43,483 bases of DNA from a virus (lineage: Duplodnaviria > Heunggongvirae > Uroviricota > Caudoviricetes). Below the pieces are notes generated by a model that made no database searches, was not told the DNA's origin, and saw only the letters and a list, made by a program, of their open reading frames with translations. Shown here one piece after another: positions 1 to 36,932 of this stretch; positions within the stretch are counted from its first letter, which is position 1, and each line of letters begins with the position of its first letter. Location of the stretch: the IMG/VR virus record IMGVR_UViG_3300025327_000015. One strand, given 5' to 3'. A program made the position numbers and the translations under genes.

Positions 1-21
1 AGAAAAGGAAGAGTTTTTCCG

Positions 22-390
22 ATGGATCTTTACTGCCCAAAGTGCGGAGAGCCTTGGGATTTTGACAGCCTGCATGACGAGGCACAGGCGCGTTATGGAG
101 TGTCCTACTACGTCGAGGACGATCCATATATCTTCCCAACTTCACGCACCAAGAACCCGGATTACGATGCTGACGCCTATCAGCGTATCTTCCGTGAAGT
201 GCAGCGTGAGTTTCAGTCCAAGGGCTGTGAGACGCTGTATGAGGCATACGGAGCCAAGTGCGGTTCTCCTTCATCTGAGACAGGACCACTGGGTCTGACA
301 CGTCAGGCCGCTGCAAGTGCTTTGTATGAACTTCTTGGCGACGACATGGATGGCGCTGCTGCCATGCTCGAAGATGAGTTCGGCTGGTAA
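22..390 (+). CDS. hypothetical protein, N-terminal CxxC
   Basis: ORF with upstream AAGGAAG; CPKCG motif. Confidence 0.7.
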   Translation: MDLYCPKCGEPWDFDSLHDEAQARYGVSYYVEDDPYIFPTSRTKNPDYDADAYQRIFREVQREFQSKGCETLYEAYGAKCGSPSSETGPLGLTRQAAASALYELLGDDMDGAAAMLEDEFGW

Positions 391-394
391 AAAG

Positions 395-458
395 CAGTAG
401 CTCTGCGGGTGAGATTCTCGAACGTTTGAGAATCTCTTGCCCGGAGCGCTATTGCTCC
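395..458 (+). ncRNA. two-hairpin intergenic element, copy A (stem is palindrome copy 1)
   Basis: TGC-GGG..CCC-GGAGC gctatt GCTCC. Confidence 0.6.
415..432. promoter_or_regulatory. 18-bp palindrome, copy 1
   Basis: TTCTCGAACGTTTGAGAA. Confidence 0.75.
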
Positions 459-477
459 ATCTGAAAGGAGGTCTCTT

Positions 478-825
478 ATGTCCAAGCTCCTGTTCATGGT
501 TCTGAATGACGGAGAAACGTACACAGGACTTGGAGGCTGCAAGATCGTTGCGGTTGATTCGCTCATTGCCAGTGAGGAGGACGATGACAAGGCCATGCTC
601 GCTTCGGGCATAGTCGCGTTTGAGTTCTCGAACCGTCCAACACTCTGGGAACAGGACGTATTCCAGTTTCCGCGACTTCTAGCCGAAATCATGGCGATTG
701 ATTTCCGGGAATCTCAGTGGGATGAACTGCTCGCAGCGATGGATCTTGAATCCGACGATCTAGCAGCTCTCTTTGACCGTGCTCAAATGTCTTGGGAACG
801 GATCAAAGAAGCCACCACGAGGTAG
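478..825 (+). CDS. hypothetical protein
   Basis: ORF with AAGGAGG SD. Confidence 0.7.
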   Translation: MSKLLFMVLNDGETYTGLGGCKIVAVDSLIASEEDDDKAMLASGIVAFEFSNRPTLWEQDVFQFPRLLAEIMAIDFRESQWDELLAAMDLESDDLAALFDRAQMSWERIKEATTR

Positions 826-865
826 CCTGCGATTCCCGCTGGCTTCCTGAAAAGGAGATTCTAAA

Positions 866-1075
866 GTGGACATACGCATTGATAACTCCGGCGATCGAGA
901 CTTCGGAGTCATCGAACTAATCGATGGTGACCACATTGGAACGATCGTCACGCTTTGGATCGCAGATGATGGATGCCCGGTTATACAGATTGATACGCCT
1001 ACCGAAAAGGACACACACGATTTGATTCGAGTGTTTCTCAATGATGCGGTGATGGAAGCCGCAAGGATCAGGTAG
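866..1075 (+). CDS. hypothetical protein
   Basis: GTG start, AAGGAG SD; flanked by 17-bp direct repeats. Confidence 0.65.
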   Translation: MDIRIDNSGDRDFGVIELIDGDHIGTIVTLWIADDGCPVIQIDTPTEKDTHDLIRVFLNDAVMEAARIR

Positions 1076-1139
1076 CCCTGCGATTCCCGCTGGCGGGAAT
1101 CCAGTTGGACTGCTAAACGAAAAGGAGTCACTGTGTTCA

Positions 1140-1349
1140 GTGATGCTGCCATGCTGCGGGAACATCTCAGTCATAACTTCGTTCCTGCGATTTCGGAGTC
1201 CTTTGATTGCGCACAAGAGGCAATCAAGGCAGTCAAATGAGGGTGACTATGATCGGCAGATCAAGACTCCCTCCGGAAACATGATGGAGGCGTGCGAGAT
1301 TATCCAGGAACTACATCTCGACTTCTTCATCGACGAAGAACATCTATAG
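1140..1349 (+). CDS. hypothetical protein (start uncertain)
   Basis: ORF fills gap; AAGGAG upstream. Confidence 0.4.
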   Translation: MMLPCCGNISVITSFLRFRSPLIAHKRQSRQSNEGDYDRQIKTPSGNMMEACEIIQELHLDFFIDEEHL

Positions 1350-1366
1350 AAAAGGAGGTCCTACCG

Positions 1367-1642
1367 ATGTACGACGAATACTACGACGAGGATGAATGGG
1401 CTGAGCGAGTTGAACGCTTTGCCGATCCTGGAGGACCTTCGGCGCTTCATGTCGCTGATTCTGGCAATCCTCGTAATCTGCCTTGTCCGACCTGTGGCTG
1501 GCCGAACCGTCTCACACCACGAGACGTAGCGGCTGGCTATCAATGCGATTCTTGCGCTGATGCGCTTGAACGCGGGCAAGACATCTACTACTACGACGAA
1601 GATGAGGAGGAAGATGAGCTATGGCTCGACGATGGGATATAG
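1367..1642 (+). CDS. acidic CxxC/CxxC zinc-finger-like protein
   Basis: AAGGAGG SD before ATG 1367; CPTC...CDSC. Confidence 0.7.
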   Translation: MYDEYYDEDEWAERVERFADPGGPSALHVADSGNPRNLPCPTCGWPNRLTPRDVAAGYQCDSCADALERGQDIYYYDEDEEEDELWLDDGI

Positions 1643-1821
1643 CTCTCGTCGTGACGATTACGGCAGACATCTACAGTGATGCGCTGCAAGAGGCGGAAGC
1701 TCTCGCTGAGGGAATCGGGATGCAAGATGAGATCTCGATTTCTGCCGTCACCCACTACGATCGCGATAGCGAAGGACAACGAGTTCTCTACTTGCACGAC
1801 GAGAAGCAGCCGATCGTGTAG
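1621..1821 (+). CDS. hypothetical protein
   Basis: ORF; stop TAG begins hairpin element. Confidence 0.55.
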   Translation: MARRWDIALVVTITADIYSDALQEAEALAEGIGMQDEISISAVTHYDRDSEGQRVLYLHDEKQPIV

Positions 1822-1870
1822 TTGCGGGTTCCGTCGCTACCGCGCGGCGGTTCCCGGAGCTACATACTCC
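1819..1870 (+). ncRNA. two-hairpin element, copy D
   Basis: TAG TTGC GGG TT CCGTCGC..GCGGCGG TT CCC GGAG ctacata CTCC. Confidence 0.6.
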
Positions 1871-1891
1871 ACAAAGAAAGGAGGTTCTACG

Positions 1892-2356
1892 ATGCTGCAT
1901 AAGGGTTTTGTTGTCATTCAATACGACAATCCCGAAGTTGTCGGTCCATTCGACACGTTCGAGGACGCGCTCGAAGCAGCATGGAGCGAGTTGAATGAAG
2001 ATGCCTTCGATCCGGAAGGTGATTTCAGCTCGCTAAACGAGTGGTACTACGACGAGGATGGGCTCTGGATCGGAAAGCTCAGAGCCACGCCCTATCCGAT
2101 GAGTCATCAGCACACTAGCCACGAAATCTTCGAGCTGCTCGACGGAGCACACCTTGTCCGCTATGACAAGAGAAACGCTCTCTTGCTCATCTGGTTCGGA
2201 GGACACGGCATCCACGCCTACGATCCCTGGTGGCGGGAAGTGTCCTTCTGGAACGTCGAGGGCACGAGCACGAGCGAAGACGCTTCGCCTGCAAGTGTGC
2301 AGGAGTCGATGGAGAAGCACATTTCGGGCGAATACGAATACACAATCGAAACGTAA
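1892..2356 (+). CDS. hypothetical protein
   Basis: AAGGAGG SD before ATG 1892. Confidence 0.7.
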   Translation: MLHKGFVVIQYDNPEVVGPFDTFEDALEAAWSELNEDAFDPEGDFSSLNEWYYDEDGLWIGKLRATPYPMSHQHTSHEIFELLDGAHLVRYDKRNALLLIWFGGHGIHAYDPWWREVSFWNVEGTSTSEDASPASVQESMEKHISGEYEYTIET

Positions 2357-2375
2357 GGAAAGGAGAAAGGGACAG

Positions 2376-2564
2376 ATGGGCAAGCCAATCTTCTGGGTAG
2401 TAGCTGATGTTCTCCGAAACTTGGAGTCCTCCGGCTTCTTCATTGAAGCCGATGCTGCACACGGATCTATCACGATCTGGGATGTGATGGATTCTGAAAA
2501 GCAGATCGGCTGGACGTTGAAAATCACGTCTGGCCCGCATGTTCGAGAAGTCGAGCACGTCTAA
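2376..2564 (+). CDS. hypothetical protein
   Basis: SD-rich leader before ATG 2376. Confidence 0.6.
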   Translation: MGKPIFWVVADVLRNLESSGFFIEADAAHGSITIWDVMDSEKQIGWTLKITSGPHVREVEHV

Positions 2565-2571
2565 AACTTCT

Positions 2572-2643
2572 GCCGCCTTGGTGTAACGGGAAACACGCTC
2601 GCCTGTAAAGCGACAGATCGTGGTTCGAGTCCACGAGGTGGCA
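2572..2643 (+). tRNA. tRNA-Tyr(GTA), short variable loop, CCA not encoded
   Basis: acceptor GCCGCCT/AGGTGGC, D-stem GTGT/ACAC, loop CTGTAAA, T-arm CGTGG TTCGAGT CCACG. Confidence 0.8.
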
Positions 2644-2644
2644 T

Positions 2645-2662
2645 TTCTGAAAGGTTTGAGAA
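2645..2662. promoter_or_regulatory. 18-bp palindrome, copy 2
   Basis: TTCTGAAAGGTTTGAGAA directly after tRNA. Confidence 0.7.
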
Positions 2663-2675
2663 AAGGGAGGCCATC

Positions 2676-2858
2676 TTGAATGTCGTAATCGAATGGGAGG
2701 TTTGCTTTTGCGAACGCTGCTTTCGTCCCTTCGATATACCCAAATCTGGGAGTAAGGGGCGAAGACGCATGGTCTGTGATGATTGCTTGCGGAAACGTCA
2801 TCGTCACAACAATCGTGCGTCCTGGCATCGTCAGCGCAAGGTTGCGGGTCGTAGGTAG
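2676..2858 (+). CDS. small basic CxxC zinc-finger protein
   Basis: TTG start, GGGAGG SD; CERC...CDDC. Confidence 0.65.
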   Translation: MNVVIEWEVCFCERCFRPFDIPKSGSKGRRRMVCDDCLRKRHRHNNRASWHRQRKVAGRR

Positions 2859-2894
2859 TAATACCTTCCTGCGGCCCGGAGCCTTCCGGCTCCG
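2841..2894 (+). ncRNA. two-hairpin element, copy K
   Basis: TTGC GGGTCGTA..GGTA GTAA TACC..TGCGGCCC GGAGCC ttcc GGCTCC. Confidence 0.6.
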
Positions 2895-2912
2895 TGAGAG
2901 AGGAGGTTCGTC

Positions 2913-3146
2913 ATGCTCCAAGCGATTGTGCCCTGGTCCGCTTCAGGTCCAGGATGGGCCAACTCTGGGCTGACTCTGTTTTATGAGGATCGTGTGACAG
3001 GAAAGCTCAATCGCCGCACGATCTACCAGCGAGACTTACGTGGAGACGCTGCTGTGCTGTTCCCACACGTTCTTCATCTCTATAACGATCTACAAAGAGC
3101 GATCCTGGACGACGAGAATAGAGCTTTTGTAAGCCCGGAGCACTAA
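2913..3146 (+). CDS. hypothetical protein
   Basis: GGAGG SD. Confidence 0.65.
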   Translation: MLQAIVPWSASGPGWANSGLTLFYEDRVTGKLNRRTIYQRDLRGDAAVLFPHVLHLYNDLQRAILDDENRAFVSPEH

Positions 3147-3154
3147 CGCTCCTA

Positions 3155-3172
3155 TTCTCAATCGTTTGAGAA
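3155..3172. promoter_or_regulatory. 18-bp palindrome, copy 3
   Basis: TTCTCAATCGTTTGAGAA running into SD. Confidence 0.7.
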
Positions 3173-3182
3173 AGGAAGTTCT

Positions 3183-3719
3183 ATGGATGACGTGTTGCCC
3201 CTAATCGGTGGGTATCTCGTTGTGACGATCAATGAGGCCGGTTACATCCTGTACGACTCCGGCATCGTGATACATCGTGAGACTCGTGACCTTCACTTGC
3301 TACCTGAATGTCATAGCCGGTTCTCAGATGCCAAGGGTGCTGTCGATCCGACCGTTTTACATGAGTCCTGGCATGATCAGGTAGCTGTTCTCGAACTCAC
3401 GCCTGACGGTGGAGGAGCAGTCCTGTGGATGCGCGAAGATCAAGTGCCAGAGCTATCCACCCGGCGTAATAAGTTCAAAGGCTGCTACGGCGAGTGGCCA
3501 ATCCGCGTTTTCTCAAAAGGAAAGGAGATTTTAAAAATGAAAGAATATACTGTAGAAGTTCCAGAAGTTTGGTATCAAAGTGTGTCTATCGAGGCCAATT
3601 CTGAAGAAGAAGCAAAAAAATTAGTAATGAGTGGAGAAGGAACTATTCTAGATTCTTCTTTAGAATATTCTCATACTCTTGATCCGCGCGAAGCTAATTG
3701 GTATGTAGAAGAAAGTTAA
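3183..3719 (+). CDS. hypothetical protein; probable internal second start at 3537
   Basis: internal AAAGGAG SD + ATG 3537; AT-richer 3' part. Confidence 0.6.
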   Translation: MDDVLPLIGGYLVVTINEAGYILYDSGIVIHRETRDLHLLPECHSRFSDAKGAVDPTVLHESWHDQVAVLELTPDGGGAVLWMREDQVPELSTRRNKFKGCYGEWPIRVFSKGKEILKMKEYTVEVPEVWYQSVSIEANSEEEAKKLVMSGEGTILDSSLEYSHTLDPREANWYVEES

Positions 3720-3722
3720 AAG

Positions 3723-3959
3723 ATGAAATACAACCATGACACTGGCCGTGGAGTCATGGACTATGCTGATGTTAGGAAAGTCGCCGAGGAAGCTCTTGCG
3801 CTCTTACAGCAGATTGATATGACAAAAGTGCAAGAATCGTTGGATTGGAGTGTCGATAAGCGACTCGATGAAGCCCGCACCGCTCTCGAACATTCCACGA
3901 ATCAGCTAGTGCGTATAGAGACGTTGCTTCTCCGAATCATCGGCTCTACTCCTGTCTAG
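3723..3959 (+). CDS. hypothetical coiled-coil protein
   Basis: ORF; stop TAG begins hairpin element. Confidence 0.6.
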   Translation: MKYNHDTGRGVMDYADVRKVAEEALALLQQIDMTKVQESLDWSVDKRLDEARTALEHSTNQLVRIETLLLRIIGSTPV

Positions 3960-4014
3960 CCCTGCGGGTTCTGCCGACTCCATGCGGCAGTTCCCGGAGT
4001 GCTAAGTTCACTTC
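3957..4014 (+). ncRNA. two-hairpin element, copy E
   Basis: TAGC CCTGC GGG TT CTGCCG..CGGCAG TT CCC GGAGTG ctaagtt CACTTC. Confidence 0.6.
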
Positions 4015-4033
4015 AGAAAGGAGGTCCTTCACC

Positions 4034-4267
4034 ATGACGGAGAAGGAAAAGATCCTCAACTTCATAGGCTGGATGGGAGCGATCTTCCTTGGTGCCTGTC
4101 TGCTCGCAGGGTTGATTCTCTCACTCACGGTTGCGGTTCATGCTCTCGATGCAGGACCGCAAGCCGAAGCACGCAGAGCGTACTACCAAGCCTGCAAACG
4201 TCAGTTCAAGGCCGGAATCTTCCAAGAACCATGCGTGACGGCTGTGAGAGATCGTCTAGGACCATAG
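4034..4267 (+). CDS. membrane protein
   Basis: N-terminal hydrophobic helix; AAGGAGG SD. Confidence 0.7.
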   Translation: MTEKEKILNFIGWMGAIFLGACLLAGLILSLTVAVHALDAGPQAEARRAYYQACKRQFKAGIFQEPCVTAVRDRLGP

Positions 4268-4318
4268 TCTGCGGATGGCGAGTTTGACAGGCTCGCCGTC
4301 CGGAGTCTTATGGTTCTC
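4262..4318 (+). ncRNA. two-hairpin element, copy F
   Basis: TAG TCTGC GGATGGCGAG..CTCGCCGTCC GGAG. Confidence 0.6.
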
Positions 4319-4331
4319 AAACGATTGAGAA
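4314..4331. promoter_or_regulatory. 18-bp palindrome, copy 4
   Basis: TTCTCAAACGATTGAGAA. Confidence 0.7.
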
Positions 4332-4345
4332 ATCGCCCACATCGA

Positions 4346-4420
4346 GGGTGGGTAGCTTATCGGTAAAGCCCTGGGTTGTGGTCCCAGACGAAGTCGGTTC
4401 AAATCCGACCCCACCCTCCA
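4346..4420 (+). tRNA. tRNA-His(GTG), CCA encoded, A-1/U73
   Basis: GGGTGGG/CCCACCC, GCTT/AAGC, CTGGG TTGTGGT CCCAG, GTCGG TTCAAAT CCGAC, T CCA. Confidence 0.85.
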
Positions 4421-4438
4421 AAGAAAGGAGTTCCTAGT

Positions 4439-4618
4439 ATGAGATATACCGTGATCGACCGTCGCCGTCTACGACGCTCTCTCGGCTCTCGTGTTATCCG
4501 CCGTCAGAGTACGAAGATGTCTGGTTCGCAGTTCAAACTCGGAATCCGGGAGCGTCCGAAGACCCGCATGAAGAATCTCATTCGAGACATTCAGGCGGGC
4601 CTGATCGAGCATCCGTAG
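4439..4618 (+). CDS. small Arg-rich protein
   Basis: AAAGGAG SD before ATG 4439. Confidence 0.65.
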   Translation: MRYTVIDRRRLRRSLGSRVIRRQSTKMSGSQFKLGIRERPKTRMKNLIRDIQAGLIEHP

Positions 4619-4668
4619 ATTGCGGTTCTTCCGCTAGAAATAGCGGAAGTTCCGGAGCCTTCGGTTCC
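4616..4668 (+). ncRNA. two-hairpin element, copy G
   Basis: TGC GG TT CTTCCGCTA GAAA TAGCGGAAG TT CC GGAG CCTTCGG TTCC. Confidence 0.6.
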
Positions 4669-4682
4669 AGAAAGGAGTTCTC

Positions 4683-4943
4683 ATGCTGCCAGAGCGCATG
4701 ACAAAGACTGATGAGCTTTTCCTGACGGGAGACTTGATTGGTTTCAACAAGTTGCTGTTGAAACGGATTCGTTCTAACCGCACGCAGGCCAAGAACCTCA
4801 TCGCACAATACGAGATGATGTTCCGGAAGTGGCCTGACAGCACCACCGAAGAAGAGCGAGAGTTCTATCGGCAGCTAACCGAATCCATCATCCGTCTTGA
4901 TGCGGCGGAAATCGAGGTAATGGGCCGTCTAACTGACTTGTAG
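4683..4943 (+). CDS. hypothetical protein
   Basis: AAAGGAG SD. Confidence 0.7.
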   Translation: MLPERMTKTDELFLTGDLIGFNKLLLKRIRSNRTQAKNLIAQYEMMFRKWPDSTTEEEREFYRQLTESIIRLDAAEIEVMGRLTDL

Positions 4944-4976
4944 ACAGGTCTTTACTTACTCCAGAAAGGAGTTCTG

Positions 4977-5258
4977 ATGTCAGAGTTTTACGACCAGGAA
5001 GGTCGTCCCATGGAGATAATGGAGTGGGGCAGGGCAAGGCAAGACCTAGCCAATATCATCGTTGCTCGGGATGAGCGTGATGAAATCATGGTCTCGACTG
5101 TTTGGATTGGCATTGACCATGGCTGGGGTCAAGGTCCTCCGATCATCTTCGAAACAATGATATTCGGCGGCAAACACGATCAGTACCAAGAGCGCTATGC
5201 GACGCGAGATGAAGCTCTTGCAGGGCACGCTCGGGCCGTTGCTCTCGCTTTCGGATAA
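4977..5258 (+). CDS. hypothetical phage-type protein
   Basis: AAAGGAG SD; VSTVWIGIDH...FETMIFGG motif seen in phage hypotheticals (recall only). Confidence 0.7.
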   Translation: MSEFYDQEGRPMEIMEWGRARQDLANIIVARDERDEIMVSTVWIGIDHGWGQGPPIIFETMIFGGKHDQYQERYATRDEALAGHARAVALAFG

Positions 5259-5392
5259 TGCGTCACTTATTCGGCATAAAGGAGTTCGGTCTGCTCGTTC
5301 TTCTTGCGGTTGGCTACGCAGCGCTGCAAGGTTCTGTTCTTGCTGCGATTGTGTGGCTCGCATACGCCGTGCTATTCGTGGCTAGCGCATAG
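5258..5392 (+). CDS. 44-aa membrane protein (below ORF-track cutoff)
   Basis: TAATG coupling; MRHLFGIKEFGLLVLLAVGYAALQGSVLAAIVWLAYAVLFVASA. Confidence 0.55.
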   Translation: MRHLFGIKEFGLLVLLAVGYAALQGSVLAAIVWLAYAVLFVASA

Positions 5393-5476
5393 TTGCGAGC
5401 CGAAGTCGGCGGTTTGACACCTACTTCAAGTTGGGGTTTATCCTTACTCTGTGTAAAACTACGCTGGGCATCAGCC

Positions 5477-5526
5477 TAGTTGCGGGTAGGGGCGGGCAAC
5501 CGCCTCCTCTCGGAGCTAATGGCTCT
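5477..5526 (+). ncRNA. two-hairpin element, copy H
   Basis: TAG TTGC GGG T AGGGGCGG GCAA CCGCCTCCT CTC GGAGC taatg GCTCT. Confidence 0.6.
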
Positions 5527-5528
5527 CA

Positions 5529-5546
5529 TTCTCAAATCTTTGAGAA
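5529..5546. promoter_or_regulatory. 18-bp palindrome, copy 5
   Basis: TTCTCAAATCTTTGAGAA. Confidence 0.75.
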
Positions 5547-5568
5547 TGTCCGATAAGGAGGAAAATCA

Positions 5569-6027
5569 ATGAGCGATCTCTACGGAGTCCCTCGCCGTCG
5601 TATTATCGGTGAGGGATTCTTCTGGATCGTGGTTGTCATTGGTTTGATCCTCGCTCTCACGGTAGGTGGTCTTGCCTGGCGGTATGTGATTGCCGCTCCC
5701 AAAGGTAAGGTCGAGGCTCGGGAACAGATCCAGTCGGGTCCGTTTCGGATAGCTGCTTATGACCGCTTCTTCAACCTCTGCGCTGCGGTGCAATCGGATG
5801 AGGCAACGATTGCCGCTTTGCAAGCTGAGTTGAAGACGAAGCCGCCTGCAAGCCGTGTCACGCAGATCAACGCCTCGATTACTGGTCTGCGTTCCGGGAG
5901 AGCCGAGAAGATCAACCAATACAACGCCGATGCCCGCAAGGATTACACCATCGGGCAGTTCCGTGCGTCAGGCCTGCCATATCAACTCTTTATTGAAAGG
6001 GAGGCAACAGAATGCGTCGTTGGCTAA
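5569..6027 (+). CDS. membrane-anchored protein
   Basis: TM helix residues ~15-38; AAGGAGG SD. Confidence 0.75.
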   Translation: MSDLYGVPRRRIIGEGFFWIVVVIGLILALTVGGLAWRYVIAAPKGKVEAREQIQSGPFRIAAYDRFFNLCAAVQSDEATIAALQAELKTKPPASRVTQINASITGLRSGRAEKINQYNADARKDYTIGQFRASGLPYQLFIEREATECVVG

Positions 6028-6575
6028 CCATCATCGCTAGTTTCATCCTTCTCTCCGGATTGCTCGTTGGCTGTACTGAGGGTGGACAGGACGATGCAAC
6101 CAAGAGTGAGACCAAGATCCGCAAAGGCACCTATCAGGCGCTCGTGGCGGCTCAGCCAGCTCATTCCATGAGTTACTCGTCGTCACGAGACACGATCAAC
6201 TTCTGGATCGACACCTGGGGCAATCAGCCCGGCAAGCTCTCCTACGTCTATCTGCTCGCCTCCAATGGGCAGATGATCGGGTACTACGTGTTCAAAGGAT
6301 TGCCTGTTTCCTACTGCGCCGCTCTCACTCCGAACTACGATCTGATTGACGTTCGAGACGACGGAATAGGGCCAAATCTCATAGTCCCAGCACCCGGAGT
6401 CGATGGTGTCTACTACTCCGGTGGACAGTGTTCGGCCTATTACGGCAAAGACGCATCCACAAATCAGTACATCGAGTACACCATCGGGCAAGGGATTTCG
6501 GCGCTCGTTTACGAACGTCCGCTTCCTCGTCAGGATGTAGAACCGCTCGGCTTCACCCGCATTCCAGAGCGGTAG
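6012..6575 (+). CDS. putative lipoprotein
   Basis: signal peptide ending LLVGC; overlaps upstream gene. Confidence 0.7.
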   Translation: MRRWLTIIASFILLSGLLVGCTEGGQDDATKSETKIRKGTYQALVAAQPAHSMSYSSSRDTINFWIDTWGNQPGKLSYVYLLASNGQMIGYYVFKGLPVSYCAALTPNYDLIDVRDDGIGPNLIVPAPGVDGVYYSGGQCSAYYGKDASTNQYIEYTIGQGISALVYERPLPRQDVEPLGFTRIPER

Positions 6576-6623
6576 TTGCAGGTAGGGGTCGCTTGCGGCC
6601 CCCTCCTGGAACCATCCGGTTCC
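6573..6623 (+). ncRNA. two-hairpin element, copy I
   Basis: TAG TTGC AGG TA GGGGTCG CTTG CGGCCCC CT CCT GGAACC atcc GGTTCC. Confidence 0.6.
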
Positions 6624-6626
6624 CGA

Positions 6627-6644
6627 TTCTCAAAGGTTTGAGAA
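6627..6644. promoter_or_regulatory. 18-bp palindrome, copy 6
   Basis: TTCTCAAAGGTTTGAGAA. Confidence 0.75.
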
Positions 6645-6673
6645 TCGCATCAGTTTCAGAAAGGAGAATCGCA

Positions 6674-7087
6674 ATGCAACTCAAGGAGGCGTACTCCAAG
6701 ATTCATGCCTACTTCTCCAAGCCGGGTGCTGCCTTCGGATTCGATCGTGAGCCGGATCTATGTCGCTTCCGTACCGAGGACGGACGTAAGTGCGCTGTTG
6801 GAGTGCTCATCCCGAACGAGATCTACGATCCCTACATGGAGGACGAAGAACTCGATGATCTTCTCCATGACGGGCTCCACTTTCTCTTGGAGGATCTGCC
6901 AGAAGAAGAAGCGGACGATCTTGTCAGGTTTCTCCGAGATGCCCAAAAAGCTCATGATTCACGGGCTGTTGGGAGAAGATGGTCTGAGGACAATCAAAGT
7001 ACAGAGAAGATCGAATCTTCGATTCCACTCTTTCTTCAGGACCTCGATCAACTCGCTCGCGAGTACGGGGTGGAAGTGGCAGCGTAG
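6674..7087 (+). CDS. hypothetical phage protein
   Basis: AAAGGAG SD before ATG 6674; CRFR..GRKCAVGVLIP. Confidence 0.7.
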   Translation: MQLKEAYSKIHAYFSKPGAAFGFDREPDLCRFRTEDGRKCAVGVLIPNEIYDPYMEDEELDDLLHDGLHFLLEDLPEEEADDLVRFLRDAQKAHDSRAVGRRWSEDNQSTEKIESSIPLFLQDLDQLAREYGVEVAA

Positions 7088-7141
7088 AAAGCTGCGGTAG
7101 GACCAGCTCATCACTGGTCCCTCCCGGAGCCTTTTATGCTC
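7085..7141 (+). ncRNA. two-hairpin element, copy J (second hairpin covers SD and ATG of next gene)
   Basis: TGC GG TA GGACCAG..CTGGTCC CT CCC GGAGC cttttAT GCTC. Confidence 0.55.
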
Positions 7142-7669
7142 GATTTTCAAACCATCATCACACTCGATACGTGGGTCACTTCCGATCAACATTGGGAGCA
7201 TCCTCGCATTCGTGAATATCAGGGGAGACCAGAAGGACATTTCTGGCTTATGCGAAATCGTTGGCATGAACTTGTTTCCGAGAATGACGTGCTGCTTCAT
7301 CTCGGGGACATAGTTTGCTTCGGAGATCGAAAACAACATGAGTTCTGGATCAATGGACTTCCTGGAAAGAAGTATCTCATCCTCGGAAACCATGATTATC
7401 ACAGGAAATCATGGTACGAAGCTGCTGGGTTCGTGGTTATTGGACGAGGAAATCGCTTCTATTCTTGGTTGTCTCCCGACGACAAGATCATTGCCTTCTC
7501 ACATGAGCCGCTGATTGAACAACATCAACTTGGTTGGGATATCAATGTTCATGGACATATACATGCGAATGAACATCGAGAAATTCCATTACCAGGTTCT
7601 AAGTACATCAATGTCAGTGTAGAAGTAACGAGCTATGCACCAATAAAACTTCGAGACATACTCAAATAG
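7136..7669 (+). CDS. calcineurin-like metallophosphoesterase
   Basis: SDQH, LGD, GNHD, SHEP, HGHIH motifs. Confidence 0.9.
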   Translation: MLDFQTIITLDTWVTSDQHWEHPRIREYQGRPEGHFWLMRNRWHELVSENDVLLHLGDIVCFGDRKQHEFWINGLPGKKYLILGNHDYHRKSWYEAAGFVVIGRGNRFYSWLSPDDKIIAFSHEPLIEQHQLGWDINVHGHIHANEHREIPLPGSKYINVSVEVTSYAPIKLRDILK

Positions 7670-32498: not shown

Positions 32499-32641
32499 TC
32501 CCCCGCCCCATCCTGCACGAGCTGGGCTTCCTCGTCACCTTCATGGGCTGGCTCGCGTTAGCCATATTCGGTCATGCGATGGTTGCGACAATCGCGATCC
32601 TCGTGGCGGTTGGGTACGCGGCATGGTGGGTGGCGCGATGA
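32495..32641 (+). CDS. 48-aa membrane protein ending WWVAR
   Basis: GTGA/ATGA overlaps; hydrophobic. Confidence 0.5.
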   Translation: MIPRPILHELGFLVTFMGWLALAIFGHAMVATIAILVAVGYAAWWVAR

Positions 32642-33012
32642 CTGCCCTCTTCGCCCAGAAGATGAAGTCCATTCCCGGCCTTGATGCTGGTATCGCGCAG
32701 TACGTCGAGATCCTCCGTCGTTACGGCGTCGAGACCTACCAATCCTGCGAGGGATGGGGTGATCTGACACAGCACGGCGATGAACATTCCTTCCCCGAGC
32801 CGACGATTCAGTTTCACGGTGGGCCTGAAGGCGGCGCCTACGCCTACGCGATCGCCCGCGTCTTCGGCCTACCGGTGAAGGAGATTCGCCGCTGCTGGGA
32901 CGAGCAGGACGGCGAACTCACGGGTCCGCACTGGGAGATCGTCTTCTGGCGAAAGGCCACGGATGAGCGCGTGAATGTTCAAAGTCTCGCTGAGATCGAG
33001 GCACTCGCATGA
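32638..33012 (+). CDS. hypothetical protein
   Basis: LDAGI..V.IL...GVETYQSCEG motif. Confidence 0.7.
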   Translation: MTALFAQKMKSIPGLDAGIAQYVEILRRYGVETYQSCEGWGDLTQHGDEHSFPEPTIQFHGGPEGGAYAYAIARVFGLPVKEIRRCWDEQDGELTGPHWEIVFWRKATDERVNVQSLAEIEALA

Positions 33013-33058
33013 CCTTCGTTAGCGTCACGGCGCTCTATACCGGGTGGTGGGTGGTGCG

Positions 33059-33244
33059 ATGAGACGACGGCTACGTCGATTTCGGTGGTGGATTGTTCCG
33101 TATCGTGTTCAGGATGGTATGAGTGTGCGCCGACAACAGTGGTGGGAATGGCTCGGTAGGCGGTGGCTCGCCCGATATATCGAGGAAGAAGCCGCGTACC
33201 AAGACCGGAAAGGTCGTTACGAGAAATGGAAGGCCGAGCGGTGA
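33059..33244 (+). CDS. small Arg/Trp-rich protein
   Basis: coupled overlaps. Confidence 0.45.
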   Translation: MRRRLRRFRWWIVPYRVQDGMSVRRQQWWEWLGRRWLARYIEEEAAYQDRKGRYEKWKAER

Positions 33245-33284
33245 CCGTGGCGGCGCTCTATGCCGGGTGGTGGGTGGTGCGGTG

Positions 33285-33614
33285 ATGACCGGGGCTCAGA
33301 TGATCGCCAGAGAACGTACTCGCCAGCATCGGCAAGAGGGCTGGACGGCCAAGCACGACAACGGTCACGTTCATCACGAGCTTGTCCGCGCCGCCGTCTG
33401 CTATGCGCTTCCCGAGCAGGTGCGCGAACAGAGGGTCCTGACCCAAACCCTGTTCTGGCATCTATGGCCTTGGGGATCGCGCTACTGGAAGCCGACTCCT
33501 GATGATCGCATCCGCGAGCTGGTCAAGGCGGGCGCGCTCATCGCCGCCGAGATCGACCGGCTTCACCGTCTCATCGCCCCGCCCCCTGAATCCGAGGAAG
33601 GTGGGGAGCGGTGA
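33285..33614 (+). CDS. conserved phage hypothetical protein
   Basis: ER.RQ...EGW...HD...AA.CYA...WPW...WKP...RELVKAGALIAAEIDRL. Confidence 0.75.
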   Translation: MTGAQMIARERTRQHRQEGWTAKHDNGHVHHELVRAAVCYALPEQVREQRVLTQTLFWHLWPWGSRYWKPTPDDRIRELVKAGALIAAEIDRLHRLIAPPPESEEGGER

Positions 33615-33793
33615 GTGAGCAAGAGGCTCTCGGCATGAGCAGTGGATGGACGAAGGGCGAGTACGTTGGTTTTCTGCCATTTGCGGCTGCGAATGTGCTG
33701 GTAGCAACAGGTCGCTATCAGTTTTGGCAGGCGAGCTTCTGGGGCTACACGGTAAAGCGAGTTTCTAAGCCCGAGGAAGATGGGGAGCAGTGA
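33611..33793 (+). CDS. hypothetical protein
   Basis: GTGA coupling via junction repeat. Confidence 0.55.
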   Translation: MSEQEALGMSSGWTKGEYVGFLPFAAANVLVATGRYQFWQASFWGYTVKRVSKPEEDGEQ

Positions 33794-34038
33794 ACGGGCT
33801 AAGGACTCTCGCGTATCGAATTCTGGCTGATCGTTATGCCACGCCTGCGGCGGCGATAGCAGCGGCGCAACTGATCATTCTCGACGACACCCTGATCGAC
33901 GTGACGCGGGCGGCGGAGCGCGCAGTCACATATCGCGACACGCGTGGCCTTGGTGGCTTAGCGAACCTGCCAGAGGATGCTCTCGATGATCTTGCAGAAG
34001 TTCTCGCCCCGTTCCTTGAGGAAGGTGGGGAGCGGTGA
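33790..34038 (+). CDS. hypothetical protein
   Basis: GTGA coupling via junction repeat. Confidence 0.55.
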   Translation: MNGLRTLAYRILADRYATPAAAIAAAQLIILDDTLIDVTRAAERAVTYRDTRGLGGLANLPEDALDDLAEVLAPFLEEGGER

Positions 34039-34493
34039 GCGCTGAGGACGTGCGGATCGTGCGGGAGGGACTGGATCGCCTTTTCAAGGCCAGCGGAGCA
34101 CCGCTTGAATGGAAGATTGAGAGCGTAGATGCCCTCGACCGCCTCGCCGCCCGCTTGCAGGAGGCTGAGCGGGAGCGGGACGACGCGGAGCAATCGTGGT
34201 CGATGTATGCAAAGGAGGCCGAAGACGCGAATACTCGCGCCGAAGCCCGCCTCGCGGAGGAGGAGAAACGGGCAACTGAGAACGGCCGACTCGCACAGAC
34301 TCATTGGGATCGTGCCGAAGCCGCCAAAGCCCGCCTCGCACGGCTGGAAAGAGCGTTGAGAATAGCGCGGCCGGTGGTGGAAAAGATGGCACAGGAGCGC
34401 GATTGGGATACAGACCTTGAGTGTTCGGTTCTAGCTTGGCCGGACATGCTACATCGGCTAGTAGTTATAGACGCCGCCCTCGCCAGCCAGTGA
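34035..34493 (+). CDS. coiled-coil hypothetical protein
   Basis: junction repeat; shares RAEAAKARLARLER with 8575-8907. Confidence 0.6.
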   Translation: MSAEDVRIVREGLDRLFKASGAPLEWKIESVDALDRLAARLQEAERERDDAEQSWSMYAKEAEDANTRAEARLAEEEKRATENGRLAQTHWDRAEAAKARLARLERALRIARPVVEKMAQERDWDTDLECSVLAWPDMLHRLVVIDAALASQ

Positions 34494-34508
34494 GGAAGGA
34501 GGGGAACG

Positions 34509-34862
34509 GTGAGAATGATTCAGGACTCTAACGACGAGTACGAGTACATGAGCGATACGGCAGAGAGCCGATGGGGAGCTGAGGACGTGCGGCCCTTGGC
34601 TGGGGCTGAATATGTCGGCAGGCGGTTTCCGTTCGCGGAGCGAGTAGAAATGTTCGTCGTTCGCGTCAATCATCCAAATGGACCGTGGGAGGCCATCTAC
34701 TGCCACACAGAGGCTCAAGCTCAAGAAATCGCCCGGATCGAAGCCCGCCTTGCGCGGCTGGAGCTTGCATTGGACACGATTGCTCGCGGTGAATATGCCG
34801 ACTTCGCCGAGAACGTCGCCAGGGACGCCCTCGCCGCCACCGAGGAAGGGGCAGAGAGATGA
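34509..34862 (+). CDS. hypothetical protein
   Basis: junction repeat; EARLARLE. Confidence 0.6.
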   Translation: MRMIQDSNDEYEYMSDTAESRWGAEDVRPLAGAEYVGRRFPFAERVEMFVVRVNHPNGPWEAIYCHTEAQAQEIARIEARLARLELALDTIARGEYADFAENVARDALAATEEGAER

Positions 34863-35110
34863 CTCCCGACGAACTGCGCGCGCTCGCAGACGAATGGGAG
34901 AGGCTTGGCATCCCTGACGACGAGTTGCCGATTGCGCTCGCGCGGCTGTGCGCGGAGATGGGGGAAGCGCTGGAGATTGCGGAGACAATCGCGATGACCT
35001 CGGCGCAAGGCTGGGAGTTACCGCGTGATGTTGTCACGGCCCTGAAGCGTGTGGAACGTGACAGCCGCGCCGCCCTCGCCAAGCTCGCGAAACTGGAGGC
35101 ACCGAAATGA
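34859..35110 (+). CDS. hypothetical protein
   Basis: ATGA coupling. Confidence 0.6.
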   Translation: MTPDELRALADEWERLGIPDDELPIALARLCAEMGEALEIAETIAMTSAQGWELPRDVVTALKRVERDSRAALAKLAKLEAPK

Positions 35111-36039
35111 GTGGCATCGCTGTCTATTCGGAATGGCTCGGCAACTGGGGGGCGCACCGCGCCCGCGACTTGCACGCAGAGGGCACGATCAACGCGGTCT
35201 ATGCGCTGGTCTGGCCGCCGAATGCTGCTGCGAAGGCGAACGCCGCCGCCTGGGAAATGTGGCGCGCGATCTACCCCGGCCCGCTGTGGGCGTGGATGAA
35301 CTGCTCGAAAGACCAGGCGGAGGACGCCTTTCAGCTTGCCGCGCTCGACGCCGCGCTCAAGCCGGACGGCTGGCTGCTCGACATCGAGGGTGAGTGGACG
35401 AAAGGTGCCAAGCTGGACACTATCGTCAGGGCTGCGAAGGCGACGGGAAAGCCCGTGAGGGCTTCCCTGGCTGGCGCCTCGGCCTCGCACGTTGAGTACG
35501 ACTATCGGCGCCTGGACGCGGCCGTCGAGTGGCAAGCCTACGCCGACTCGGGCGAAGGTCCGGATCCTGAGACGGCGGTGCGCGAACTGTACGAGTCGAG
35601 CTTCGTGATTCCGGGGTGGGAGTACCGGAGCTGGGTGAGACTGCCGGAGCAGAAGCGGGCTGTTTACGGCTGGGGCAAGATAGGCAGCGTTGATGGCGCA
35701 GCCGCCTGGTTTGATTCTTACCGTCGACCAAACGAAAGAGACGCTTACTTCATCGTGAGCGCGCGCGAATGGGGCTTCACCGTCAAGGATCATGTTCTGT
35801 GGCCGACTGAAGTATCCGAGCCACCGCTCGGCCGCCTCCTCGGCCGCGCCCGCTACTCCAAGATCAGGGTTGCGCTCATCGTCTCCGAGGAGATCGAGCA
35901 GCGCCGGACACTCGCGGAGTGGACAGCCTACGCGGCCTCGGCGCGGATGCCGGGGATGGCGAAGCGACCAATCAGTGTGTACCTGGCGGAGCGGGCGAGC
36001 GATGACGTGCTGCGGGCGGTGGCGAAGGGAGCGGGATGA
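35107..36039 (+). CDS. hypothetical protein, possible glycoside-hydrolase-like barrel
   Basis: 310 aa; WLLDIEGEW recalls the GH25 DxE motif (weak). Confidence 0.6.
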   Translation: MSGIAVYSEWLGNWGAHRARDLHAEGTINAVYALVWPPNAAAKANAAAWEMWRAIYPGPLWAWMNCSKDQAEDAFQLAALDAALKPDGWLLDIEGEWTKGAKLDTIVRAAKATGKPVRASLAGASASHVEYDYRRLDAAVEWQAYADSGEGPDPETAVRELYESSFVIPGWEYRSWVRLPEQKRAVYGWGKIGSVDGAAAWFDSYRRPNERDAYFIVSAREWGFTVKDHVLWPTEVSEPPLGRLLGRARYSKIRVALIVSEEIEQRRTLAEWTAYAASARMPGMAKRPISVYLAERASDDVLRAVAKGAG

Positions 36040-36629: not shown

Positions 36630-36932
36630 ATGACCTTCATACCACTTGAGCAGCGCAAACAAGAGCGCGAGTTTTACGACTCACAACCTATGCGAAGTAC
36701 ATGTCTTTTCTGTGAATGGTCTATTGAGGGGAGGGCAAATGAAGTGCGTAATCAAGCACTTGCCCATCGACAAGAAAAACATTCGGAGACGTTTAAGAGA
36801 CGTCGATCTTTTCGAAGCCGTCGTGCTCTGAGTACGTTTCGTTATGTGGAAATGGATAATGAGGAGCGCGATGAGGTAGAGCAGGAGCGGAGACGACGTG
36901 CATACCTCATTGGGATCGAAATTGACGAATGA
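36630..36932 (+). CDS. C2H2-like basic protein
   Basis: CLFCEW...AHRQEKH. Confidence 0.6.
   Translation: MTFIPLEQRKQEREFYDSQPMRSTCLFCEWSIEGRANEVRNQALAHRQEKHSETFKRRRSFRSRRALSTFRYVEMDNEERDEVEQERRRRAYLIGIEIDE

What the first reader, a model, noticed from the sequence alone, without database searches (positions are those of the whole stretch)
395..7141. Nine copies of an unrecognised two-hairpin intergenic element punctuate the first 7 kb
Seen: copies at 395, 1819, 2841, 3957, 4262, 4616, 5477, 6573 and 7085 share one architecture: (TAG)..YTGC-[variable stem-loop]-GGAR-[second hairpin], usually followed by the next SD. Six copies begin at or beside the upstream TAG stop. The sequence varies but pairing is kept. 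The first stem opens GGG/CCC, GGA/TCC, AGG/CCT or GG/CC; the second hairpin is GGAGC/GCTCC, GGAACC/GGTTCC or GGAGTG/CACTTC. Loops include GAAA, GCAA, GTAA, CTTG and TTCG. The 5' leader also covaries with the bases after GGAR (TAG/CTA, TAGC/GCTA, AAGG/CCTT, AAAG/CTTT). That allows either one long hairpin with a constant G.G mismatch, or two hairpins plus a pseudoknot. Known: GNRA, CUUG and UUCG are stable RNA tetraloops, and T7 and SPO1/SP82 early polycistrons carry intergenic RNase III hairpins. Inference: this is an RNA-level cassette punctuation signal (processing or stabilising site, switch, or new ribozyme), or an attC-like recombination hairpin. I cannot match it to a named family.
Basis: partly seen in the sequence, partly recalled or inferred. 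Interest (0 to 1): 0.85.

Follow-up and report, generated by a model that had tools for sequence, protein, structure and literature searches.

The report
Stop-codon hairpin switches between phage genes
An uncultivated soil phage separates about two dozen small early genes with copies of one structured mRNA module that starts at each gene's stop codon and can refold into a second hairpin beside the next ribosome-binding site; it is a real, covarying, unnamed RNA family shared by at least four phages, and it probably links or insulates translation of neighbouring genes.

Summary
Confirmed and larger than reported. A covariance model finds exactly the nine reader copies in the window (E 1e-14 to 8e-5), all on the + strand, and nothing else in 43 kb. 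The same contig continues upstream, so the full array has 22 good copies in 11.5 kb of one early operon.

Each copy is a ~55-nt imperfect hairpin: stop codon, YUGC, GG(G), variable stem-loop, (C)CC, GGAG, 3' lower strand. A G.G mismatch is almost invariant.

- **Structure:** 17 of 18 pairs show compensatory changes (0/500 shuffles).
- **Second hairpin:** the GGAG strand also covaries with a downstream CUCC strand, and the two pairings exclude each other.
- **Stop codon:** it lies 6 nt before UGC in 19 of 28 cases and is TAG in 25 of 28. Other genes mostly use TGA.
- **Other phages:** arrays occur in three further phage contigs (GC 65% against 50%), and two or three copies in a fifth.
- **Not found:** no Rfam match, no U-tract, and no integrase, HUH transposase or RNase III in a complete carrier genome.

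Best reading (0.42): a refolding module triggered by the terminating ribosome. Main rival (0.25): an RNase III-type processing site. This scan already noted the upstream part of this array (e1-1678635).

The parts
394..458 (+). Module c14: long hairpin (TAG at 398, UGC 404-406, GGAG 443-446) plus hairpin 2 (443-458). Its upper stem is an 18-bp E2 palindrome (415-432).
   Evidence: R1 hit 395-455, E 6e-8; folds; hairpin 2.
1814..1870 (+). Module c17: TAG stop 1819-1821, UGC 1823-1825, GGAG 1856-1859, and a short 4-bp hairpin 2.
   Evidence: R1 hit E 5.6e-13; fold. Its 30-nt upper hairpin is identical to that of upstream copy c06.
2834..2893 (+). Module c18: there is no TAG in the leader, and the upstream ORF (2676-2858) ends inside the stem. 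UGC is at 2843-2845, GGAG at 2878-2881, and hairpin 2 (6 bp) at 2878-2893.
   Evidence: R1 hit E 7e-8; folds.
3954..4014 (+). Module c19: TAG stop 3957-3959, UGC 3963-3965, GGAG 3996-3999, hairpin 2 at 3996-4014.
   Evidence: Best R1 hit, E 1.5e-14; folds.
4262..4317 (+). Module c20: TAG stop 4265-4267, UGC 4270-4272, GGAG 4302-4305. The hairpin 2 strand overlaps the left arm of E2 (4314-4331). It is followed by tRNA-His rather than an ORF.
   Evidence: R1 hit E 7.8e-5; tRNA; fold.
4613..4668 (+). Module c21: TAG stop 4616-4618, UGC 4621-4623, GGAG 4654-4657, hairpin 2 at 4654-4668. It is one of two copies where the two-hairpin state is predicted to be the more stable.
   Evidence: R1 hit E 1.4e-8; energies.
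5469..5526 (+). Module c22: TAG 5477-5479 (no called gene ends here), UGC 5481-5483, GGAG 5512-5515, hairpin 2 to 5526, then E2 at 5529-5546.
   Evidence: R1 hit E 1e-7; fold.
6564..6623 (+). Module c23: TAG stop 6573-6575, UGC 6577-6579, GGAA 6608-6611 (the U-A variant of the pair below the core), hairpin 2 to 6623, then E2 at 6627-6644.
   Evidence: R1 hit E 1.1e-7; fold.
7084..7138 (+). Module c24, the last of the array: TAG stop 7085-7087, UGC 7093-7095, GGAG 7126-7129. Here the GGAG strand is itself the Shine-Dalgarno of the next gene (ATG at 7136), and there is no hairpin 2.
   Evidence: R1 hit E 5.5e-7. The cost of opening the SD falls from 9.4 to 4.5 kcal/mol when the stop region is masked.
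823..860 (+). Degenerate copy: TAG stop, CCTGC, then a truncated hairpin.
   Evidence: Read; weak R1 hit 820-917, E 0.08.
1073..1125 (+). Degenerate copy: TAG stop, CCCTGC, a hairpin, and an altered 3' core (CAG in place of GGAG).
   Evidence: Read and folded.
3131..3154 (+). 3' half remnant: CCCGGAGC plus hairpin 2 without the 5' half, followed by E2 at 3155-3172.
   Evidence: Read; E2.
5390..5412 (+). 5' half remnant (TAG, TTGC, GAG...) at the stop of gene 5258-5392. A TTGACA promoter-like insert follows it, before module c22.
   Evidence: Read; interpretation is inference.

Best explanation
E1 is a cis-acting mRNA module placed at nearly every gene junction of one long early operon. It has four segments.
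- **A** is the 5' lower strand. It carries the upstream gene's stop codon (usually UAG) 6 nt before a YUGC core.
- **A variable hairpin** follows A.
- **B** is the 3' lower strand, which begins GGAG.
- **C** is a downstream strand ending in CUCC. It lies a few bases before the next gene's Shine-Dalgarno.

On free RNA, A pairs with B, giving one long hairpin of about 22-26 bp weakened by a constant G.G mismatch. A ribosome that reaches the stop codon holds A, the core and the inner GG(G) helix in its mRNA channel. The variable upper hairpin then sits at the ribosome's leading edge, B is released, and B pairs with C to form hairpin 2.

On this reading the module reports 'upstream gene translated to its end' as a change of structure next to the following ribosome-binding site. 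The likely result is control of how terminating and initiating ribosomes interact at each junction. That means insulation against re-initiation by scanning ribosomes. In at least one copy (7084-7138, where B is the real SD) it means direct translational coupling.

**Shown:** the structures, their covariation, their mutual exclusion, the stop-codon register and the spread across phages. **Inferred:** the ribosome as trigger, and the effect on expression.
For: 1. **The long hairpin is real.** On a plain MAFFT alignment of 22 copies, 82% of cells pair, against 67% in shuffles. Seventeen of 18 pairs change on both sides (0/500 shuffles), and sliding the partner drops pairing to 32-52%. On the model-fitted alignment of 28 matches from three phage contigs (one of them a reverse-strand echo) pairing is 90%.
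2. **Hairpin 2 (B with C) is real.** It reaches 6 bp or more in 23 of 31 copies, against 31.5% of chimeras that join one copy's B to another copy's downstream sequence (0/2000 permutations). At variable positions 5-6, 48 of 52 cells pair, against 29.5 expected.
3. **The two pairings share strand B, and hairpin 2 needs a trigger.** With C masked, the long hairpin is more stable than the two-hairpin state with A masked in 17 of 19 copies, by a mean of 4.3 kcal/mol.
4. **The stop codon has a fixed register.** It lies 6 nt before U of UGC in 19 of 28 cases (range 4-10), and it is TAG in 25 of 28. In the window phage TAG closes 15 of 19 E1-linked genes but only 6 of 40 others (Fisher p = 3e-6). The pattern repeats in contig L371: 6 of 8 against 3 of 15, p = 0.02.
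5. **The geometry fits a terminating ribosome.** This is inference from the known ribosome footprint. With the stop in the A site, about 12-13 nt downstream are shielded, which covers A, UGC and GG(G). The variable upper stem starts at about +13 to +15. That is where Chemla et al. place their ribosome termination structure (PMC7518266).
6. **At copy c24, B is the SD of gene 7136.** Masking the stop region lowers the cost of opening it by 4.9 kcal/mol.
7. **B favours C over A.** At the fifth position of B, the pair with A is broken in 13 of 28 copies, while the pair with C holds in 24 of 26.
8. **Related phages differ.** More distant relatives carrying the homologous early gene (L369, L370, L372) have back-to-back or overlapping stop and start codons and no E1. 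This suggests the module replaces direct coupling.
Against: - **SD gating is not consistent.** In partition-function models, masking the stop region does not reliably open the next SD. The mean change is +0.5 kcal/mol, with a range of -3.6 to +4.9: eight copies rise by 0.7 kcal/mol or more, six fall by at least 0.5, and five barely change. The C-with-SD step of a full relay is therefore unproven.
- **Some copies lack the expected context.** One is followed by a tRNA rather than an ORF (4262-4317). One has no ORF ending in it (5469-5526).
- **The G.G mismatch is almost invariant** (33 of 35). A purely energetic role does not explain that. It looks more like a recognition or cleavage determinant.
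- **There are no RNA data** for this uncultivated phage.
- **TAG and its register could partly reflect descent**, if the element was copied together with its own stop codon.
Confidence: 0.42

Rival explanations
1. E1 is an endonuclease processing site of the T7 or SP82 early-mRNA type. Host RNase III, or another double-strand-specific nuclease, cuts the long hairpin near the conserved core and its G.G mismatch. The upstream product keeps a 3' hairpin. The freed B strand pairs with C, giving the downstream mRNA a protective 5'-terminal hairpin just before its strong SD.
For: - The hairpin has about 22-26 bp with internal defects, the size and style of RNase III substrates, and it sits between the cistrons of an early polycistron.
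- The core and mismatch are conserved across phages of 50% and 65% GC, while the stems are free to vary. That fits recognition by a conserved host enzyme.
- It explains why hairpin 2 forms only after A is removed.
- It explains a copy in front of tRNA-His.
- An SD-like purine run that stabilises an SP82 phage mRNA is on record (Hue et al. 1995, as cited in PMC7509114). That it lies just downstream of an RNase III cut is my recollection.
Against: - It does not explain the fixed 6-nt register of the stop codon or the TAG preference.
- A cut across the lower stem would leave upstream mRNAs without a 3' hairpin.
- The two copies whose ORF ends inside the stem would become non-stop mRNAs after a cut.
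- No cleavage data exist. The complete carrier genome G001 has no RNase III of its own, so a host enzyme must be assumed.
Confidence: 0.25
2. E1 is the binding site of a sequence-specific RNA-binding protein. It would be a phage early or middle protein that represses, stabilises or antiterminates, and that recognises the widened groove at the G.G mismatch with its flanking U-A and C-G pairs.
For: The short helical core with a purine-purine mismatch is almost invariant, while everything else varies. From general knowledge, purine-purine pairs mark protein-binding sites in RNAs such as the HIV Rev response element.
Against: - No candidate protein was identified. The early-region proteins scanned, including the protein conserved just before the array in both phages (L216 7021-7848 and its G001 relative), have no significant Pfam match.
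- The arrays share only one to three genes between phages.
- It does not explain hairpin 2 or the stop-codon register.
Confidence: 0.1
3. E1 acts on transcription. It would be a hairpin-dependent pause or a U-tract-less terminator or attenuator after each early gene, perhaps released by the trailing ribosome.
For: It is a stable hairpin right after a stop codon. The layout of alternative pairings resembles attenuators. Terminators without U tails were proposed for the early region of an actinophage; I know this paper only from its title, as cited by papers listed.
Against: - No copy has a T run. The terminator scan flags only one strong + strand terminator in 14.7 kb, a canonical one with a T run just upstream of the array. 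These phages therefore do use U-tract terminators.
- Mycobacterial RNA polymerase is reported to need a U-tract (PMC3993855, title and abstract).
- Twenty-two terminators within one operon, with few promoters between them, would silence the distal genes.
Confidence: 0.08
4. E1 is mainly a DNA-level element. It would be a recombination hairpin or repeat (attC-like, REP-like or PeSL-like) that moves or shuffles small gene cassettes, with any RNA structure a by-product.
For: - Gene content of the arrays differs almost completely between phages while the module is kept.
- Two copies share an identical 30-nt upper hairpin between different flanks.
- There are half copies and a promoter-like insert inside one copy.
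- GTAG precedes the hairpin in 9 of 22 good copies, as at REP elements (that comparison is from memory).
- PeSLs are composite stem-loop and promoter repeats tied to gene shuffling in T4-type phages (PMC4122927).
Against: - The structure is strand-specific with many G.U pairs, and all copies share one orientation.
- The upper stems are unrelated in sequence yet still paired. That points to selection on folding, not copying.
- The complete carrier genome has no tyrosine recombinase and no Y1 transposase.
- Hairpin 2 covaries separately.
- Recombination at the repeats may well happen, but as a side effect.
Confidence: 0.07

Closest known systems
Ribosome termination structure (RTS; Chemla et al. 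2020, PMC7518266)
   Same: It is a stable mRNA structure placed right after stop codons inside operons, peaking at the edge of the stretch shielded by a terminating ribosome. It is proposed to insulate termination from re-initiation.
   Different: The RTS is a statistical folding bias with no conserved sequence. E1 is a sequence-defined family. It contains the stop codon itself, has a constant mismatch and a covarying alternative hairpin, and recurs at about 24 junctions of one operon.
RNase III processing hairpins of T7 early mRNA and SP82/SPO1 early mRNA
   Same: They are paralogous imperfect hairpins of about 50-60 nt between the cistrons of a phage early polycistron, with internal defects. 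In SP82 an SD-like purine run stabilises the mRNA (the rest is from general knowledge).
   Different: As far as I know, those sites have no fixed register to the stop codon and no described alternative pairing. Cleavage of E1 is untested.
ermC/cat-type translational attenuators, and SD-sequestering hairpins opened by an upstream ribosome (MS2 coat-replicase, operon coupling)
   Same: A ribosome sitting on the first strand frees the second strand to pair with the third. At copy c24 the upstream ribosome would directly unmask the next SD.
   Different: In those systems the trigger is a stalled or passing ribosome within a leader or an upstream ORF, not a terminating ribosome at a conserved stop-codon element. 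They are single sites, not a repeated module. The last step (C with SD) is not consistently supported here.
PeSLs of T4-type phages (PMC2839356, PMC4122927)
   Same: They are conserved composite stem-loop motifs that recur between small variable genes in hyperplastic phage regions and are linked to modular gene turnover.
   Different: PeSLs are terminator-plus-early-promoter units, defined at the DNA and transcription level. E1 has no promoter and no U-tract, and it shows RNA-level covariation.
Integron attC sites
   Same: Each is an imperfect hairpin with conserved ends and a variable centre, directly after a cassette ORF.
   Different: E1 has no R/L-box core, no integron integrase and sense-strand G.U pairing, and several genes often lie between copies.

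Membership tests
Any Rfam 15 family (ribozymes and riboswitches included) | A match to a curated covariance model. | tested here: not met
   The gathering scan of the window finds only four tRNAs. The permissive scan of 300-7300 at E up to 10 gives no hit on any copy.
Intrinsic (Rho-independent) terminator | A GC-rich hairpin followed at once by a U-tract. | tested here: not met
   No copy is flagged. The only strong + strand terminator lies upstream of the array, at L216 7973-7994. The 3' flanks read GGAGCGCUA and the like.
Integron attC | An integron integrase (tyrosine recombinase) in the same element. | tested here: not met
   PF00589 is absent from the complete carrier genome G001, while the control genomes all match. 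Nothing recombinase-like was found among nine early-region proteins.
Integron attC | R''/L'' and L'/R' boxes with a GTTRRRY core, and folding of the bottom strand. | tested here: not met
   The core is YUGC...GGAG. G.U pairs favour the sense strand.
REP element with RAYT transposase | A Y1 HUH transposase partner, and near-identical palindromic copies. | tested here: not met
   PF01797 is absent from G001. The upper stems are unrelated in sequence between copies.
RNase III processing site (T7 type) | An imperfect double-stranded hairpin of about 20 bp or more between cistrons. | tested here: met
   Folds give 22-26 bp with a mismatch and a 2x2 loop.
RNase III processing site (T7 type) | Site-specific cleavage by RNase III. 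| not testable with these tools
   No RNA run was listed for this phage.
Ribosome termination structure (RTS) | A stable structure beginning at the leading edge of a ribosome that sits on the stop codon. | tested here: met
   The stop codon lies 6 nt before UGC in 19 of 28 cases. The upper stem starts at about +13 to +15, and long-hairpin energies run from -22 to -42 kcal/mol.
Ribosome termination structure (RTS) | It lowers re-initiation at the next cistron. | not testable with these tools
   This needs reporter assays.
Translational attenuator with alternative pairings (1:2, 2:3, 3:4) | Two mutually exclusive helices that share one strand, each supported by covariation. | tested here: met
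   A with B. B with C. Exclusive, with the long form favoured by 4.3 kcal/mol.
Translational attenuator with alternative pairings (1:2, 2:3, 3:4) | The third strand sequesters the SD when it is not held by the second strand. | tested here: inconclusive
   The change in SD opening energy ranges from -3.6 to +4.9 kcal/mol with a mean of +0.5. It is clear only for c24, c19, c12 and c21.

The most novel reading that the evidence does not exclude
E1 is a new class of cis-regulatory RNA: a termination sensor. The terminating ribosome, paused on a UAG held in a conserved context, releases a decoy Shine-Dalgarno (B). The decoy captures an anti-SD strand (C). This sets, junction by junction, whether the next early gene is translated or its mRNA survives. 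The module has spread as a portable unit through the early operons of a clade of soil phages.
Probability: 0.3. Interest if true: 0.85.

Novelty: new variant of a known kind. Interest (0 to 1): 0.68.

Why it matters
How bacteria and phages set the expression of each gene inside long operons is still poorly understood. Structures after stop codons have so far been described only as a statistical trend. This family offers a sequence-defined, repeated natural example with dozens of covarying copies in at least four phages. It has an alternative fold and a fixed register to the stop codon, so the idea can be tested directly with reporters and structure probing. If the ribosome-triggered switch holds, the module is a compact, portable part for insulating or coupling genes in synthetic operons. 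It would also explain how these phages run two dozen unrelated early genes from one promoter. If the RNase III reading holds instead, it would, to my knowledge, be the first defined family of processing sites for actinophage early mRNAs.

Tried and rejected
**RNA evidence.** No RNA holder was listed for the stretch, so transcript ends could not be examined.

**Natural variants.** Laying contigs from four soil and groundwater DNA runs showed the same strain with no differences in any copy, so there is no population-level covariation. The loose ends at 1823 and 1860 only join the two copies that share an identical upper hairpin. That is probably an assembly ambiguity.

**Pattern scans.**
- Scans of IMG/VR and of genome contigs with core patterns gave almost only single chance hits. 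Folding and the model then picked out the real carriers.
- blastn of one copy against 50,697 GenBank phages gave only chance 18-19-mers.

**Relatives of gene 6012-6575.** Relatives in IMG/VR and JGI carry other hairpins or true terminators after that gene, but no E1.

**Wasted search.** One protein search was run in the wrong frame.

**SD-gating model.** This was tested and found inconsistent.

**Phage release factor as an obligate partner.** The complete carrier G001 has no RF-1 domain, so this is not supported.

**Stop-codon read-through or ribosome hopping.** Both were considered because of UAG plus a hairpin plus a downstream GAG. I rejected them because each junction is followed by its own strong SD and start codon, and the frame after the stop differs between copies.

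**Ribozyme.** Rejected: no Rfam ribozyme hit and too few conserved unpaired bases.

**Pseudoknot.** The same bases are explained by the long hairpin.

**Hairpin 2 alignment.** The MAFFT alignment of hairpin 2 (A3) left the 3' strands out of register, so I did that pair count in a script instead.

Full report
**Source and setting.** The window comes from an uncultivated phage found in soil metagenomes. Contigs of about 109 kb carry it. The gene content looks actinophage-like: an Rpf-type transglycosylase, an amidoligase with a glutamine amidotransferase, and strong AAAGGAGG ribosome-binding sites. GC is about 50%. No close relative exists among GenBank phages. Two loci from the same contig extend the window upstream: L207 (window position = L207 position - 3327, 3 mismatches) and L216 (offset 12918).

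Reading and folding the nine places shows one architecture. In order, it consists of:
- a 5' lower strand that usually contains TAG;
- a YUGC core;
- an inner GG(G) helix;
- often a 2x2 internal loop (UU/UU or UA/CU);
- a variable stem-loop;
- (C)CC, then GGAG;
- a 3' lower strand.

The predicted minimum-energy fold is one long hairpin, with a G opposite a G inside UGC/GGA. I built a covariance model from 22 copies (A1, R1). Run with filters off, it finds exactly the nine reader copies in the window, at E from 1.5e-14 to 7.8e-5, all on the + strand. It finds nothing comparable in the other 36 kb. Because the model was trained on these copies, it is that absence of further hits that carries weight. 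Rfam has no match at the gathering score or at E up to 10.

**The array is larger than the finding.** It starts at L216 8535, right after the first small gene of a rightward operon. A canonical terminator with a T run (L216 7973-7994) and a TTGACA-type promoter-like site precede that operon. The array ends at window 7138. There are 22 good copies in 11.5 kb, two degenerate ones (window 826 and 1073) and two half copies (about 3131 and 5390). After the last copy the genes are tightly packed.

**Structure is under selection.** On the plain MAFFT alignment, 82% of cells pair, against 67.4% in shuffles. Seventeen of 18 pairs change on both sides. None of 500 shuffles reaches any of the five measures. 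Sliding the partner by 1-3 columns drops pairing to 32-52%. On the model-fitted alignment of 28 matches from three phage contigs, one of them a reverse-strand echo, pairing is 90%; that alignment leans towards the structure by construction. The pair below the core is C-G in 17 rows, U.G in 8 and U-A in 1. All copies lie on the coding strand. The folded molecule is therefore the sense RNA. The pair next to the mismatch also covaries: C-G in 25, A-U, U-A and U.G in one each. The mismatch itself is G.G in 33 of 35 structurally detected copies and A.G in two.

**A second, exclusive pairing.**
- It reaches 6 bp or more in 23 of 31 copies. Only 31.5% of chimeras that join B of one copy to the downstream sequence of another do so (0/2000 permutations).
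- At the variable positions, 48 of 52 cells pair, against 29.5 expected.
- A with B and B with C cannot coexist. The long form is favoured in 17 of 19 copies, by a mean of 4.3 kcal/mol. Hairpin 2 therefore needs A to be occupied or removed.
- At the fifth base of B, the pair with A is broken in 13 of 28 copies, while the pair with C holds in 24 of 26.

**Link to translation termination.** The upstream gene's stop codon lies in strand A. It starts 6 nt before U of UGC in 19 of 28 cases, and it is TAG in 25 of 28. In the window phage TAG closes 15 of 19 E1-linked genes but only 6 of 40 other called genes, which mostly use TGA (p = 3e-6). The pattern repeats in an independent contig (p = 0.02). 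A ribosome with the stop codon in its A site shields roughly 12-13 nt downstream (established footprint data). That would hold A, the core and the inner helix, and leave the variable upper hairpin at its entrance. This is the position reported for ribosome termination structures (PMC7518266).

**Spread.** Pattern scans followed by folding and the model found arrays in other phages:
- A complete 86.7-kb genome with terminal repeats (G001, GC 65%) has at least seven copies at 4.7-7.1 kb.
- L355, a 4.1-kb fragment, has two copies.
- L371, a JGI contig, has about ten.
- L380 has two or three.

All of these keep the stop-codon register, the mismatch, hairpin 2 and the following SD. The arrays share only one to three genes. 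More distant relatives of the shared gene sit in blocks of back-to-back or overlapping stop and start codons without E1.

**What it is not.**
- No copy has a U-tract.
- G001 lacks a tyrosine recombinase, a Y1 transposase, RNase III and an RF-1 domain.
- The early-region proteins scanned, including the one conserved just before the array in both phages, have no significant Pfam match.

**Mechanism.** I favour a refolding module triggered by the terminating ribosome (0.42). On free RNA, A pairs with B. A ribosome at the stop codon frees B, which pairs with C next to the next ribosome-binding site. At the last copy B is itself the SD of gene 7136, and masking the stop region lowers its opening cost by 4.9 kcal/mol, so coupling there is direct. 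Elsewhere the predicted effect on the true SD is inconsistent (mean +0.5, range -3.6 to +4.9). I therefore cannot say whether the outcome is coupling, insulation or control of mRNA fate.

The main rival (0.25) is RNase III-type processing, in which the cut rather than the ribosome frees B to form a protective 5' hairpin. It explains the conserved mismatch and the copy before tRNA-His better, but not the stop-codon register. The two readings could both be true.

**Earlier notes of this scan.** Finding e1-1678635 described the upstream part of this same array and reached the 'stop-codon hairpin switch' reading. My tests were run independently and agree on the structures and the register. They add three things: the cross-phage arrays, the bias-controlled test of hairpin 2, and the negative result on SD gating. 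Finding e1-1678636 covers the 18-bp palindrome.

Noticed in passing
window 415-432, 2645-2662, 3155-3172, 4314-4331, 5529-5546, 6627-6644, 8357, 11553, 12356, 14091, 15955, 18958, 26352, 29461, 41403, 42633; also L216 6838, 8269, 9220, 9522, 10469, 12114: A second repeat family (E2): the 18-bp palindrome TTCTCAAANNTTTGAGAA, often extended to 22 bp, with 22 copies, mostly 5-25 nt before an SD. Three copies form the upper stem of an E1 hairpin. The palindrome differs by phage while E1 stays the same: TTCTCAGNNNCTGAGAA in G001 and TACTCAGNNNNCTGAGTA in L371, where it often forms the E1 upper stem. That fits a phage-specific dimeric binding protein.
   Followed up: partly
window 1826-1855 and L216 10283-10312: Two E1 copies share an identical 30-nt upper hairpin between different lower strands and different genes. 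This suggests patch conversion between copies. Assembly loose ends in two runs join these two copies.
   Followed up: partly
window 5390-5480: A 5' half of E1 sits at the stop of gene 5258-5392. A TTGACA promoter-like segment follows it, and then a full copy, as if a promoter had been inserted into one module.
   Followed up: no
L216 7973-8300 and L363 4170-4420: The same layout precedes the array in both the window phage and G001: a canonical terminator with a T run, a promoter-like TTGACA...GACAATGTA, an E2-type palindrome, and then the first SD. A weakly similar 264-276-aa protein of unknown family (26% identity) lies just upstream.
   Followed up: partly
window 2571-2644 and 4346-4420: tRNA-Tyr and tRNA-His lie inside the early operon among the E1 modules. 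tRNA-His directly follows module c20 and an E2 palindrome.
   Followed up: no
window 30000-36000: This stretch has 60-64% GC against about 50% elsewhere. It contains the Rpf-like transglycosylase ORF and a mechanically listed 619-aa - strand ORF with no Pfam match.
   Followed up: no
window 36929-38980: A 683-aa N6/N4 DNA methylase matches its Pfam model in two stretches and has a faint LAGLIDADG hit in the middle. It may carry an inserted homing endonuclease or an intein.
   Followed up: no
L369, L370, L372: In more distant relatives that carry the homologous zinc-ribbon early gene, the small genes around it are mostly packed with back-to-back or overlapping stop and start codons instead of about 90-nt E1 modules.
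   Followed up: partly
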